Program-made: the position numbers
Part shown: positions 49,101 to 52,100 of the stretch, one piece after another
Layout: every line of letters begins with the position of its first letter
How positions within the stretch are numbered: position 1 is the first letter of the stretch
DNA from: Escherichia coli
GTDB taxonomy: Bacteria; Pseudomonadota; Gammaproteobacteria; Enterobacterales; Enterobacteriaceae
Strand: one strand, 5' to 3'
Assembly (NCBI RefSeq): GCF_050920415.1
Contig: NZ_CP169309.1
DNA length: 64,000 nt

Positions 49101-52100
49101 CGTCCGCAGTTGGCCGCAATGATGGCGCGCGTCGACTTACAACCTTTTAACTGACAGCAGGAGAGGCATAATGAAAACGCTGCTGATTATTGACGCTAAT
49201 CTCGGTCAGGCACGCGCCTATATGGCGAAGACCCTGCTGGGCGCGGCGGCGCGAAAAGCAAAACTGGAAATCATCGACAATCCGAACGACGCTGAAATGG
49301 CGATTGTTCTCGGTGATTCCATCCCGAACGACAGCGCGCTGAACGGTAAAAATGTCTGGCTGGGCGATATTTCCCGGGCAGTTGCGCACCCTGAGCTGTT
49401 CCTGAGTGAAGCCAAAGGCCATGCGAAACCTTACACTGCACCGGTCGCTGCGACAGCACCAGTTGCCACCAGCGGTCCGAAACGCGTAGTTGCGGTGACA
49501 GCTTGCCCGACTGGCGTAGCACACACATTTATGGCGGCTGAAGCCATTGAAACCGAAGCGAAAAAACGTGGCTGGTGGGTGAAAGTTGAAACCCGTGGTT
49601 CTGTTGGCGCGGGTAATGCGATCACCCCTGAAGAAGTAGCCGCAGCGGATCTGGTGATTGTGGCGGCAGATATCGAAGTGGATCTGGCGAAATTTGCTGG
49701 TAAACCGATGTATCGCACCTCTACCGGTCTGGCGCTGAAGAAAACCGCGCAGGAACTGGATAAAGCGGTTGCTGAAGCAACGCCGTATGAACCGGCGGGC
49801 AAAGCTCAAACAGCGACCACTGAAGGTAAGAAAGAGGGTGCAGGCGCTTACCGTCACTTGCTGACGGGCGTCTCTTACATGCTGCCGATGGTCGTTGCAG
49901 GTGGTCTGTGTATCGCGCTTTCTTTTGCTTTTGGTATCGAAGCGTTTAAAGAGCCGGGTACGTTGGCAGCGGCGCTGATGCAGATTGGTGGTGGTTCAGC
50001 CTTTGCGCTGATGGTGCCGGTACTGGCAGGTTACATTGCCTTCTCCATTGCCGATCGTCCGGGTCTCACGCCGGGTCTGATTGGCGGTATGCTGGCGGTC
50101 AGCACCGGTTCTGGCTTCATTGGGGGTATTATTGCGGGCTTCCTGGCTGGTTACATTGCGAAGTTAATCAGTACGCAACTGAAACTGCCACAGAGTATGG
50201 AGGCGCTGAAACCGATCCTGATCATTCCGCTAATTTCCAGTCTGGTGGTCGGTCTGGCGATGATCTACCTGATCGGTAAACCGGTTGCTGGCATTCTCGA
50301 AGGGTTGACTCACTGGCTGCAGACCATGGGGACTGCGAATGCGGTTCTGCTGGGGGCGATCCTCGGTGGCATGATGTGTACTGACATGGGCGGTCCGGTA
50401 AATAAAGCAGCGTACGCATTCGGTGTGGGTCTGCTGAGTACTCAAACCTATGGTCCGATGGCGGCGATTATGGCGGCAGGTATGGTGCCACCGCTGGCAA
50501 TGGGTCTGGCAACAATGGTGGCGCGTCGCAAATTCGACAAAGCGCAGCAGGAAGGTGGCAAAGCCGCTCTGGTTCTTGGTCTGTGCTTTATTTCGGAAGG
50601 TGCAATTCCGTTTGCTGCTCGTGATCCGATGCGTGTGCTGCCGTGTTGTATCGTTGGTGGGGCGCTGACTGGCGCAATCTCAATGGCGATTGGTGCGAAA
50701 CTGATGGCACCGCACGGTGGTCTGTTTGTTCTGCTGATCCCTGGCGCTATTACGCCGGTACTGGGTTACCTGGTAGCAATTATTGCCGGTACGCTGGTGG
50801 CGGGTTTGGCCTATGCCTTCCTGAAACGTCCGGAAGTGGACGCAGTAGCGAAAGCAGCGTAATAAAAGGTGTGTTACAGGGCAGAAATTTCCTGCCCTGT
50901 AACATTTGATGAGCGCAAAGGGAATGACCAGTTTGTGAATGTAATTTTATGAATTTAAATGGTTTTATCTTTCAGTAGAAACCTGAAATGTTCATCAAAC
51001 ACTAAGGTTATTTCCTCAAGGGCAGATTATTTCTGCCCTTTTTTAGTGTTCCTGTTCTGTGCATCCCGTCACAAATTCCTCACTTTTGTAATTCAGGCAT
51101 TTAATCGCATTTTGTGAGCCTGCTCAAATCTGCCCATTTTGCCTCTCTGGCGGCAATTTACTTTACGTAAAACATGCATACTATGAGCACATGTTTAAAT
51201 ATGAACACATGTTTAAACCGTCTTTGCAGTATCTATATTCTTGTGGATTGACAGGGTTGGTAATTTTTTACCAGAGGACGTGCTATGCGCGAAAAGGATT
51301 ATGTCGTAATTATAGGCTCGGCGAATATTGATGTCGCCGGATATTCACATGAATCATTAAATTATGCGGATTCAAATCCAGGTAAAATAAAATTTACGCC
51401 TGGTGGGGTAGGGCGCAATATTGCACAAAACCTGGCGTTGCTGGGTAATAAAGCCTGGCTACTGAGCGCCGTAGGCAGTGATTTTTATGGTCAATCGCTG
51501 CTAACGCAAACTAATCAATCTGGCGTTTATGTCGATAAATGCCTGATTGTGCCGGGAGAAAATACGTCGAGCTATTTATCATTACTCGATAATACCGGTG
51601 AAATGCTGGTTGCTATAAATGACATGAATATTAGCAACGCTATTACAGCTGAATATCTCGCACAGCACCGTGAATTTATTCAGAGGGCAAAGGTCATTGT
51701 CGCGGACTGTAATATCAGTGAAGAGGCACTGGCATGGATTCTGGATAATGCCGCCAACGTACCCGTATTTGTCGATCCTGTTTCTGCGTGGAAATGTGTC
51801 AAAGTGCGCGACCGTCTAAATCTGATCCACACTCTCAAGCCAAACCGCCTTGAAGCGGAAACCCTGAGTGGGATTGCGTTGTCAGGGCGTGAAGATGTGG
51901 AAAAGGTTGCCGCCTGGTTCCATCAACATGGCCTGAACCGACTGGTATTGAGCATGGGCGGCGACGGCGTTTATTACAGTGATATTAGCGGTGAAAGTGG
52001 TTGGTCTGCGCCGATTAAAACCAATGTCATTAATGTTACCGGAGCGGGCGATGCCATGATGGCGGGACTTGCTTCGTGTTGGGTAGACGGAATGCCGTTT

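What the first reader, a model, noticed from the sequence alone, without database searches (positions are those of the whole stretch)
51188..51217. Tandem CACATGTTTAAA repeats upstream of psuK
Two 12-bp direct repeats (51188-51199 and 51206-51217), each containing the palindromic core ACATGT, lie about 70 bp upstream of the pseudouridine catabolism operon start. This looks like a regulator binding site; I do not recall a described regulator for this operon.
Basis: seen in the sequence. Interest (0 to 1): 0.35.

Follow-up and report, generated by a model that had tools for sequence, protein, structure and literature searches.

The report
Twin operators at pseudouridine operon promoter
Two adjacent 18-bp repeats lying on the predicted transcription start of the E. 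coli pseudouridine-breakdown operon are very probably the binding site of an uncharacterised kinase-like DNA-binding protein (YeiI), which gives that orphan protein a testable job and explains a promoter mutation that keeps being selected in gut and laboratory evolution.

Summary
CACATGTTTAAA occurs exactly at 51188-51199 and 51206-51217. It is part of a head-to-tail 18-bp unit, TATGA[G/A]CACATGTTTAAA x2 (51182-51217), identical in K-12.

Comparative footprinting shows two 12-bp dyads, RAACA-NN-TGTTY, 18 bp apart. They directly follow a conserved promoter: a CRP-like site at -70.5, -35 TTTACT and -10 TACTAT. The repeats therefore span about -9 to +27, a repressor position.

The same dyad pair (18-19 bp spacing) precedes psu operons in 17 species or haplotypes of Gamma- and Betaproteobacteria. 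The only protein that travels with it is a winged-helix + PfkB-kinase protein. That protein is the first operon gene in Yersinia, Serratia, Photorhabdus, Pasteurella, Orbaceae, Aquitalea and Paludibacterium. It is the separate paralogue YeiI in Escherichia, Citrobacter and Buttiauxella.

Three psu operons with no such gene nearby lack the pair.

The recurrent adaptive "psuK/fruA A>C" SNP maps to 51159 and turns the -35 TTTACT into TTGACT.

I found no paper describing a regulator for this operon.

Best reading: twin operators for a YeiI-type pseudouridine-responsive repressor. This rests on computation only. The transcription start, the binding and the inducer are inferred.

The parts
51058..51073 (+). 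Distal CRP-like site TGTGCATCCCGTCACA (9/10 of TGTGA-N6-TCACA), centre about -125.5
   Evidence: a second CRP-like site lies 52-55 bp upstream of the proximal one in all 10 Enterobacteriaceae sequences. CRP binding not tested.
51113..51128 (+). Proximal CRP-like site TGTGAGCCTGCTCAAA, centre 51120.5, which is -70.5 from the predicted start (class I position)
   Evidence: The TGTGA and TCA.A columns are invariant in the 12-sequence footprint. The site scores 9/10 and sits at a fixed 64.5 bp from core 1 in 10/10 Enterobacteriaceae.
51157..51162 (+). -35 hexamer TTTACT; position 51159 is the site of the recurrent adaptive SNP (T>G on this strand, giving TTGACT)
   Evidence: TTTAC.TT is invariant across 12 sequences, and TTTACT is also present in Yersinia, Serratia and Photorhabdus. 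The SNP 2257444 A>C (PMC7518454) was mapped using a coordinate offset of 1978, verified with four srlR codon changes.
51169..51174 (+). Conserved AAAACA in the promoter spacer; possible auxiliary half-site (AACA)
   Evidence: AAAAC columns are invariant or nearly invariant. Its role is not resolved.
51179..51184 (+). -10 hexamer TACTAT (16-bp spacer from the -35); predicted start about 51191
   Evidence: TA..AT is invariant. A -10-like hexamer abuts core 1 in E. coli, Yersiniaceae (TAAAAC) and Aquitalea (TACCAT), and lies 2 nt from it in Paludibacterium (TAGTAT). The start site is inferred, not measured.
51182..51217 (+). The reported feature: two head-to-tail 18-bp units (51182-99, 51200-17), about -9 to +27
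   Evidence: One strain (UC4316) carries a single unit.
51185..51196 (.). Operator core 1, GAGCA-CA-TGTTT (dyad), about -6 to +6
51203..51214 (.). Operator core 2, GAACA-CA-TGTTT (dyad), about +13 to +24; centre 18 bp from core 1
51218..51284 (+). Poorly conserved remainder of the predicted 94-nt leader, with the Shine-Dalgarno AGAGGA at 51273-78. Probably a decayed relic of a winged-helix coding segment.
   Evidence: Low conservation except at the ribosome-binding site. In Citrobacter and Raoultella the 60 nt before the ATG, read in the psuK frame, resemble the last 20 aa of the wHTH domain (P<=0.0013 against shuffles). E. coli gives P about 0.08.
51285..54496 (+). Regulated operon: psuK (51285-52226), psuG (52214-53152), psuT (53246-54496)
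57742..58830 (-). yeiI: 362-aa winged-helix (residues 1-50) + PfkB kinase-like protein; the candidate cognate regulator
   Evidence: Pfam HTH_24 3e-10 and PfkB 1e-67. It is 39% identical to PsuK. It sits directly next to psuT in Citrobacter and Buttiauxella. Homologues head psu operons in 7 distant species.

Best explanation
The two 18-bp repeats are twin operators of the psuKGT promoter.

Each repeat holds a 12-bp dyad, RAACA-NN-TGTTY (51185-96 and 51203-14, centres 18 bp apart). The dyads begin right after the -10 hexamer of a weak, CRP-dependent sigma-70 promoter: CRP-like site at -70.5, -35 TTTACT, 16-bp spacer, -10 TACTAT, start near 51191. A protein bound there would block open-complex formation or promoter escape.

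The protein is most likely YeiI, probably as two dimers or a tetramer. YeiI has an N-terminal winged helix fused to a paralogue of pseudouridine kinase. It keeps the pseudouridine-contacting residues but has altered catalytic motifs.

Binding of pseudouridine, or of its 5'-phosphate, to the kinase-like domain would release the DNA and induce the operon.

Evolutionary reading: the ancestral state was a single bifunctional, self-regulating wHTH-PsuK at the head of the operon, as still seen in Yersinia, Serratia, Pasteurella and Aquitalea. In Enterobacteriaceae it split into an enzyme (PsuK, which lost the helix) and a regulator (YeiI).

Shown: the repeat, its conservation, its position relative to conserved promoter hexamers, and its co-occurrence with the wHTH-PfkB gene.
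Inferred: the start site, YeiI binding, repression, and the identity of the inducer.
For: 1. Footprint. In 12 Escherichia, Citrobacter, Raoultella and Buttiauxella sequences the conserved blocks are the CRP-like site, TTTACTTT, TA..AT and the two cores. The leader after the repeats is variable and carries indels.

2. Symmetry. The central dinucleotide is CA in some species and TG in others, and Citrobacter core 2 (GAACATGTGCTC) is close to the reverse complement of E. coli core 1. This indicates DNA-level dyad recognition.

3. The same pair of cores, spaced 18 bp (19 in two betaproteobacteria) and just downstream of a -10-like hexamer, precedes psu operons in Yersinia, Serratia, Photorhabdus, Pasteurella, Orbaceae, Aquitalea and Paludibacterium.

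4. Specificity. The pair is found at 24/24 psu promoters and once elsewhere in 312 kb. Shuffles give a mean of 0.18.

5. In all 7 distant species the first operon gene is a wHTH-PfkB homologue of YeiI. In Citrobacter and Buttiauxella yeiI directly abuts psuT.

6. Three psuK-psuG-psuT operons with no wHTH-PfkB gene within 6 kb have no pair.

7. The helix region (SRS.VA.HIM.L..KG) is nearly invariant across homologues and identical between the two E. coli yeiI haplotypes, which are 86% identical overall. This matches the invariant half-sites.

8. YeiI keeps S30, N143 and K170, the pseudouridine-binding residues named in PMC9061257. It has GADD for GAGD and PDES for GGDG. The fused homologues keep the canonical motifs.

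9. The recurrent adaptive SNP improves the -35 from 4/6 to 5/6. The same allele is fixed in K-12 laboratory lines ER1821R, ER2683, S17-1 and ST18. This supports the proposed promoter as the one used in vivo.

10. yeiI is retained in 5420 of 5426 E. coli genomes.
Against: - No experiment was available. The transcription start is predicted, and I could not obtain published start-site tables.
- In the gut and stationary-phase evolution papers, repressor knock-outs are the usual route (frlR, dgoR, srlR, glpR). Yet psu is always hit by the single -35 SNP, and no yeiI mutation appears in the text or held supplements. This is unexpected if loss of YeiI alone fully derepressed the operon.
- In E. coli yeiI lies 6.5 kb away, behind yeiL-rihB-nupX.
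- The control genomes could carry a wHTH-PfkB gene elsewhere.
- GADD may still be catalytically competent, so YeiI could be a kinase with another substrate.
- The TGTT-N8-AACA segment between the cores also resembles DeoR/GlpR operators: 13/20 to the GlpR 20-mer, against 14/20 for the second authentic glpD operator.
Confidence: 0.6

Rival explanations
1. The repeats are an operator, but for a different transcription factor. Candidates are the neighbouring CRP/FNR-family YeiL, a DeoR/GlpR-family repressor (TGTT-N8-AACA between the cores), or CytR acting with the two CRP sites.
For: - yeiL lies next to psuT in E. coli.
- TGTTT-N6-GAACA has the 5-N6-5 layout of CRP-family sites.
- The psuK site scores 13/20 against the GlpR consensus and 11/16 against DeoR. 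The C. werkmanii version TGTTCGATATTGAACA is closer.
- Two CRP-like sites 52-55 bp apart recall CytR-regulated nucleoside promoters (the CytR architecture is from my own knowledge).
Against: - yeiL-rihB-nupX is absent from the Citrobacter and Buttiauxella loci and from the seven distant operons, yet the motif pair is conserved there.
- Authentic glpD and deoC operators contain no RAACA-NN-TGTTY core. The glpD tandem period is 20 bp, not 18.
- The only gene shared by all motif-bearing loci is the wHTH-PfkB.
Confidence: 0.15
2. The repeats act in the mRNA. They would form a 5'-terminal hairpin that stabilises the transcript, or a pairing site for the small RNA RprA.
For: - If transcription starts near 51191, the repeats are transcribed.
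- In K-12-type E. coli, 51193-51203 pairs with 51208-51218 (11 bp).
- psuK is listed as an RprA target in RIL-seq and TRIC-seq data.
Against: - No Rfam match reaches threshold.
- The consensus fold across 13 species is weak (-3.7 kcal/mol) with an unfavourable covariation term, and only pairs TGTT with AACA.
- The 11-bp hairpin is lost in ST131-type E. coli, E. albertii and Citrobacter.
- The predicted RprA-leader duplex is no better than with shuffled leaders: -38.8 against a mean of -35.0, sd 4.7.
- The CA<->TG inversion of the core centre fits DNA symmetry, not an RNA sequence.
Confidence: 0.07
3. The repeats are activator sites for a promoter downstream of them (TTTAAA-16-TATATT, 51212-51239), at about -64 to -29.
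For: The consensus scan reports this 9/12 promoter-like match. Direct repeats overlapping a -35 are typical of some activators.
Against: - The hexamers and the whole 51218-51260 stretch are not conserved in ST131-type E. coli, E. albertii, Citrobacter or Buttiauxella.
- The scan finds as many such matches in shuffled sequence: 2 found against a mean of 1.7.
- In GC-rich Aquitalea and Paludibacterium a clear TTGACC -35 and a -10 hexamer lie upstream of the dyads.
- The selected SNP improves the upstream -35.
Confidence: 0.05
4. The repeat is a neutral, recent tandem duplication with no function.
For: The 17/18 identity of the units is restricted to K-12-type Escherichia. One genome has lost a unit.
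Against: Both cores, with the same spacing, predate the perfect repeat. They are conserved across families and into Betaproteobacteria.
Confidence: 0.02

Closest known systems
ROK-family repressors NagC / Mlc (own knowledge)
   Same: An N-terminal winged helix is fused to a sugar-kinase fold that serves as the sensor, and the protein represses catabolic or uptake operons for that sugar.
   Different: ROK proteins have the ASKHA (hexokinase-like) fold, whereas YeiI has the PfkB/ribokinase fold. The operators are unrelated in sequence.
Bifunctional enzyme-repressors ('trigger enzymes') such as BirA, NadR and PutA (own knowledge)
   Same: In Yersinia, Serratia, Pasteurella, Aquitalea and others, a protein with intact kinase motifs and a DNA-binding domain heads its own operon, with the operator in front. 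This is the enzyme-plus-autorepressor logic.
   Different: The enzyme class and DNA-binding fold differ. In E. coli the two roles appear to be split between the paralogues PsuK and YeiI.
GlpR and DeoR operators (glpD, deoCABD)
   Same: They share TGTT/AACA half-sites and the TGTT-N8-AACA geometry. They form tandem operators overlapping the promoter of a sugar-phosphate or nucleoside catabolic operon that is also CRP-dependent (for the sequences; the rest is own knowledge).
   Different: The tandem period is 20 bp rather than 18. There is no AACA-N2-TGTT dyad. The inner bases differ (CG or AG against YR). The proteins belong to the DeoR family, not wHTH-PfkB.
Class I CRP-dependent promoters such as malT (own knowledge)
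   Same: A CRP-like site is centred at -70.5 upstream of a weak -35.
   Different: CRP binding and dependence were not tested here. A second CRP-like site lies at about -125.5.

Membership tests
Repressor operator overlapping a sigma-70 promoter | Dyad-symmetric site | tested here: met
   Both cores are RAACA-NN-TGTTY. The central dinucleotide inverts between species.
Repressor operator overlapping a sigma-70 promoter | Site lies between the -10 hexamer and about +25 of the promoter actually used | tested here: inconclusive
   Conserved -35 and -10 hexamers abut core 1 in Enterobacteriaceae, Yersiniaceae and two betaproteobacteria. The selected SNP improves this -35. The start site itself was not measured.
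Repressor operator overlapping a sigma-70 promoter | A protein binds the site and lowers transcription | not testable with these tools
   Needs EMSA or footprinting and reporter assays.
Operator of the wHTH-PfkB (YeiI, NCBIfam PRK09954) proteins | The motif co-occurs with the gene across genomes | tested here: met
   The pair is present at all 17 distinct species or haplotypes that have the gene in or next to the operon. It is absent from 3 of 3 psu operons with no such gene within 6 kb.
Operator of the wHTH-PfkB (YeiI, NCBIfam PRK09954) proteins | The DNA-reading helix is conserved in step with the motif | tested here: met
   Residues 30-44 are nearly invariant in 9 homologues and identical in the two E. 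coli haplotypes.
GlpR/DeoR-family operator | Match to the GlpR 20-mer or the DeoR 16-mer | tested here: inconclusive
   psuK scores 13/20 (GlpR) and 11/16 (DeoR). The glpD operators score 20/20 and 14/20, and deoC scores 15/16.
GlpR/DeoR-family operator | Tandem operators with a 20-bp period | tested here: not met
   The period is 18 bp (19 in betaproteobacteria). glpD is 20 bp.
YeiL (CRP/FNR family) site | The motif travels with yeiL | tested here: not met
   The motif is conserved at loci with no yeiL nearby: Citrobacter, Buttiauxella, Yersinia, Serratia, Aquitalea and others.
PhoP box | Direct (T/G)GTTTA hexamers 11 bp apart (own knowledge of the consensus) | tested here: not met
   The TGTTTA hexamers are 18 bp apart. 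The second is TGCTCT in most species.
ArgR ARG-box pair | Two 18-bp palindromes separated by 3 bp, giving a 21-bp period (own knowledge) | tested here: not met
   The units abut with no gap, giving an 18-bp period.
Class I CRP-dependent promoter | CRP consensus centred near -61.5, -71.5 or a similar position | tested here: met
   A 9/10 match lies at -70.5 relative to the predicted start, at a fixed distance in 10/10 Enterobacteriaceae. Binding was not tested.
Known cis-regulatory RNA | Rfam match or conserved structure with covariation | tested here: not met
   No match reaches a gathering score. RNAalifold gives -3.7 kcal/mol with a covariation term of +0.11.
Variable-number tandem repeat (contingency locus) | Frequent copy-number variation among strains | tested here: not met
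   4206 of 4212 matching genomes cover at least 80% of the two-copy query. One single-copy genome was found.

The most novel reading that the evidence does not exclude
wHTH-PfkB proteins form an undescribed class of one-component regulators derived from an enzyme. In this reading the ancestral pseudouridine kinase was also the repressor of its own operon, acting through twin RAACA-NN-TGTTY operators. In Enterobacteriaceae the gene duplicated and the two roles separated. PsuK lost the DNA-binding domain, leaving a decayed relic in its leader. YeiI became a pseudouridine-sensing pseudo-kinase repressor.
Probability: 0.45. Interest if true: 0.7.

Novelty: new variant of a known kind. Interest (0 to 1): 0.55.

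Why it matters
- It assigns a concrete, testable function to YeiI, one of E. coli's remaining uncharacterised predicted regulators, and proposes the first regulator for pseudouridine catabolism.
- It gives a mechanism for the "psuK/fruA" SNP that sweeps repeatedly in mouse-gut and long-term stationary-phase evolution. The SNP is a -35 up-mutation next to the operator, and it is already fixed in several laboratory K-12 lines.
- It offers a clear example of an enzyme-repressor that split into an enzyme and a sensor.
- It suggests a ready-made pseudouridine-responsive switch (YeiI plus a 36-bp operator). That could serve as a biosensor in strains engineered to make pseudouridine for mRNA therapeutics.

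Tried and rejected
- **Window-wide motif searches.** Searches for the 12-mer, for TGTTY-N6-RAACA and for the core gave chance-level counts. The only exact extra core (35565) is inside a permease gene. No shared site was seen before rihB, nupX, yeiL or nfo.
- **Downstream promoter.** The TTTAAA-16-TATATT match from the scan is not conserved and is no better than shuffles.
- **RNA explanations.** Rfam, RNAalifold and an RprA duplex prediction gave no support.
- **YeiL as regulator.** It does not co-occur with the motif.
- **PhoP box and ARG boxes.** The spacing is wrong.
- **GlpR/DeoR.** The half-sites are similar but the period differs. This is not fully excluded.
- **Measured transcription start.** The dRNA-seq paper I tried (PMC4288677) and the Preumont 2008 paper (by DOI) are not held.
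- **Apparent absence of psuK in about 1200 genomes.** This was a megablast artefact. Those genomes carry a divergent, E. albertii-like haplotype.
- **Structure prediction of YeiI.** Not run, because it would not test DNA binding.
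Full report
**Locus and observation.** The window is E. 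coli, in the reverse orientation to K-12. The gene order is fruB-fruK-fruA (47086-50862), psuK (51285-52226), psuG, psuT, yeiL (minus strand), rihB, nupX, then yeiI, nfo and yeiH on the minus strand. CACATGTTTAAA occurs exactly at 51188-51199 and 51206-51217. It is the core of a head-to-tail 18-bp unit, TATGA[G/A]CACATGTTTAAA, present twice at 51182-51217 with 17/18 identity. K-12 MG1655 is identical from 51155 to the psuK start, so K-12 literature applies.

**Where the promoter is.** Papers from the Gordo group report an intergenic "psuK/fruA" A>C substitution at 2257444 that arises in most mice and is considered adaptive. They say it changes psuK expression and growth (PMC7518454, PMC9509342, PMC6731689, PMC10340439). 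The Finkel long-term stationary-phase study found the same single A>C allele ("psuKp") in three of four populations (PMC7858067). I converted the coordinate to the current K-12 record by finding the offset that reproduces four reported srlR amino-acid changes. Only 1978 works. That places the SNP at window 51159, T>G on the psuK strand. It changes TTTACT (51157-62) to TTGACT, a -35 hexamer improved from 4/6 to 5/6. Sixteen bases downstream lies TACTAT (51179-84), which predicts a start near 51191. The repeats then span about -9 to +27.

**Phylogenetic footprint.** psuK relatives were fetched from Escherichia species, E. albertii, five Citrobacter, a Raoultella MAG and two Buttiauxella. The aligned upstream regions show five conserved blocks:
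- TGTGA-N6-TCA.A, a CRP-like site at 51113-28
- TTTACTTT
- AAAAC
- TA..AT
- two cores of the form GARCA-YR-TGYTY

The leader after the repeats is poorly conserved and has indels. That stretch includes the only "promoter" found by the consensus scan, TTTAAA-16-TATATT. The central dinucleotide of the cores is CA in some species and TG in others, which is what a symmetric DNA-binding protein tolerates. About 1200 E. coli genomes, ST131 among them, carry an E. albertii-like haplotype. Its cores are GAACATGTGTTT and GAACACATGCTC at the same 18-bp spacing. The near-perfect tandem repeat is therefore a K-12-type lineage state laid over an older pair of sites. The CRP-like site scores 9/10 and sits at a fixed 64.5 bp from core 1 in all ten Enterobacteriaceae. 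That is -70.5 from the predicted start. A second CRP-like site lies 52-55 bp further upstream.

**The candidate protein.** In Citrobacter and Buttiauxella, psuT is followed directly on the other strand by a 362-364 aa protein and then nfo. The protein has an N-terminal winged helix (HTH_24, HTH_11, weak MarR) and a PfkB kinase domain. This is YeiI. In E. coli, yeiL-rihB-nupX is inserted between psuT and yeiI. The kinase domain of YeiI is 39% identical to PsuK, and PsuK is its best match among solved structures. YeiI keeps Ser30, Asn143 and Lys170, which PMC9061257 names as the pseudouridine-binding residues. It has GADD in place of the GAGD motif and PDES in place of GGDG. YeiI is called uncharacterised in PMC9061257 (2022) and PMC12506659 (2025). 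PMC6055005 lists it only as a hypothetical transcription factor.

**Distant relatives.** YeiI homologues from seven species were placed in genomic context: Yersinia kristensenii, Serratia, Photorhabdus, Pasteurella testudinis, an Orbaceae bacterium, Aquitalea and Paludibacterium. In every case the wHTH-PfkB gene is the first gene of an operon with psuG, often followed by a nucleoside transporter. There is no separate psuK. These proteins keep the canonical GAGD and GxxG motifs. E. coli PsuK is 59-60% identical to them, more than YeiI is at about 50%. In Yersinia and Serratia the called start is nine codons too long. The consensus start is MT.REK.

**The motif follows the protein.** All 14 upstream regions examined carry two RAACA-NN-TGTTY cores, 18 bp apart (19 in the two betaproteobacteria). 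The pair lies directly after a -10-like hexamer:
- TTTACT-17-TAAAAC in Yersiniaceae and Photorhabdus
- TTGACC-18-TACCAT in Aquitalea
- TTGACC-17-TAGTAT, plus 2 nt, in Paludibacterium

A scan of all 312 kb held found the pair at every psu promoter (24 of 24 loci). It found one other site, inside yeiE. Shuffled sequence gave a mean of 0.18. Three psuK-psuG-psuT operons with a helix-less PsuK and no wHTH-PfkB gene within 6 kb have no pair: Aeromonas jandaei, "Bartonella" sp. HY038 and a Pasteurellaceae MAG. The helix region SRS.VA.HIM.L..KG is nearly invariant among homologues. It is identical in the two E. coli yeiI haplotypes, which are otherwise 86% identical. yeiI is present in 5420 of 5426 E. 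coli genomes. An RNA polymerase SELEX study lists constitutive promoter signals before nfo and yeiI (PMC3946193).

**Mechanism proposed.** YeiI binds the four alternating AACA/TGTT half-sites from about -6 to +24, probably as a dimer of dimers, and blocks initiation at a weak CRP-dependent promoter. Pseudouridine or its phosphate, bound in the kinase-like domain, releases it. The -35 SNP raises promoter strength next to the operator. This fits the higher growth rate of the mutant both with and without pseudouridine. The binding, the direction of regulation and the inducer are all inferences.

**Evolutionary reading.** The fused, self-regulating kinase looks ancestral. In Citrobacter and Raoultella the 60 nt before the psuK ATG, read in the psuK frame at a fixed register, resemble the last 20 residues of the winged helix (VAGHIMNLMQKGYIKGKGYI against VAVVILNELISGKIIARGRA). 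This gives P<=0.0013 against shuffles, and the other two frames score at background. In E. coli the signal has decayed to P of about 0.08, with stop codons. This suggests psuK lost its DNA-binding domain in place while the duplicate, YeiI, kept it. The sequences concerned are closely related, so this amounts to one or two independent observations.

**Population data.** Within K-12-type genomes the 64 bp covering the promoter and operators is exact in 3689 of 4212. The next 64 bp is exact in 3143 of 4211. One genome, UC4316, an engineered derivative of UC4224, has exactly one 18-bp unit. The TTGACT allele occurs in ER1821R, ER2683, S17-1, ST18 and a pigeon isolate.

**Rivals.**
- *Another transcription factor.* YeiL does not travel with the motif. 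GlpR and DeoR operators share TGTT-N8-AACA, but authentic glpD and deoC operators have no AACA-N2-TGTT dyad and a 20-bp period. On score alone (13/20) cross-recognition is not excluded.
- *An RNA element.* There is no Rfam hit and no covariation. The 11-bp leader hairpin is specific to K-12-type strains. psuK is a reported RprA target, but the predicted pairing is no better than with shuffled leaders.
- *Activation of a downstream promoter.* Those hexamers are not conserved.
- *A neutral duplication.* This is contradicted by the conservation.

**Main caveat.** In the evolution experiments repressor knock-outs are common, yet no yeiI mutation is reported in the text or held supplements. If YeiI were a simple repressor whose loss sufficed, such mutations would be expected. 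Either the intrinsically weak promoter is limiting, or YeiI has further roles, or the model is incomplete. From my own recollection, not checked here: early work by Breitman and colleagues found that E. coli pyrimidine auxotrophs needed a mutation to use pseudouridine. That would fit a poorly inducible, weak promoter.

**Novelty.** An operator over a promoter is an ordinary device. The apparent regulator family (winged helix + PfkB kinase), its twin-dyad operator and the enzyme/regulator split are not described in any paper I could find. I rate this a new variant of a known kind, of moderate to good interest, resting on computation only.

Noticed in passing
window 51159 (K-12 NC_000913.3 2259422): The laboratory-evolved adaptive allele TTGACT is already present in sequenced K-12 laboratory lines ER1821R, ER2683, S17-1 and ST18, and in one pigeon isolate. 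The parents of the Finkel study also differ from their reference at psuK/fruA.
   Followed up: partly
L026 (E. coli UC4316), equivalent to window 51200-51217: This engineered derivative of strain UC4224 has exactly one 18-bp unit, a clean deletion of one repeat. I did not check whether the parent has two copies or whether psuK expression changes.
   Followed up: partly
window 61134-61163 (inside yeiE; also L015 6667): This is the only other twin-core match in 312 kb: GAACAGGCGGTT and GAACAACTGTTT, 18 bp apart. It lies about 320 bp upstream of yeiH, which heads the yeiH-nfo-yeiI gene string. It may be chance or an autoregulatory site.
   Followed up: no
window 50872-50904 and 51018-51040: The fruA-psuK spacer holds two terminator-like hairpins that are 21-nt copies of each other (AGGGCAGAAATTTCCTGCCCT and AGGGCAGATTATTTCTGCCCT), 141 bp apart. 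The stretch between them has no annotated gene in K-12 and no Rfam match.
   Followed up: no
window 51058-51128: Two CRP-like sites lie 52-55 bp apart, a spacing that recalls CytR/CRP-regulated nucleoside promoters. The segment between them was not examined for CytR boxes.
   Followed up: no
window 49800-59000 across 5426 E. coli genomes: The region exists as deeply divergent haplotypes. About 2000 genomes carry a yeiI allele only 80-90% identical. About 1200 carry an E. albertii-like psuK and promoter that megablast missed. ST131 lacks an intact nupX. The yeiI and promoter haplotypes are not strictly linked, as UPEC85 shows.
   Followed up: partly
L017 (E. coli CUPS04): A deletion joins the 3' end of psuK to a truncated yeiI, removing psuG, psuT, yeiL, rihB and nupX.
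   Followed up: no
window 52222-52261: A 21-bp tandem repeat sits at the psuK/psuG overlap. It encodes a repeated ISPE peptide at the PsuG N-terminus (MSELKISPELLQISPEV).
   Followed up: partly
psuK mRNA (window 51191-51310): psuK is listed among RprA small-RNA targets shared by RIL-seq and TRIC-seq (bioRxiv 10.1101/2025.09.11.675593). My duplex prediction could not locate a convincing pairing site.
   Followed up: partly
L018 7001 and L019 7001 (Yersinia, Serratia): The called start codons of the wHTH-PfkB genes are probably nine codons too far upstream. The ATG inside operator core 1 (ACATGTTTAAA) was taken as the start, whereas homologues begin at MT.REK.
   Followed up: yes
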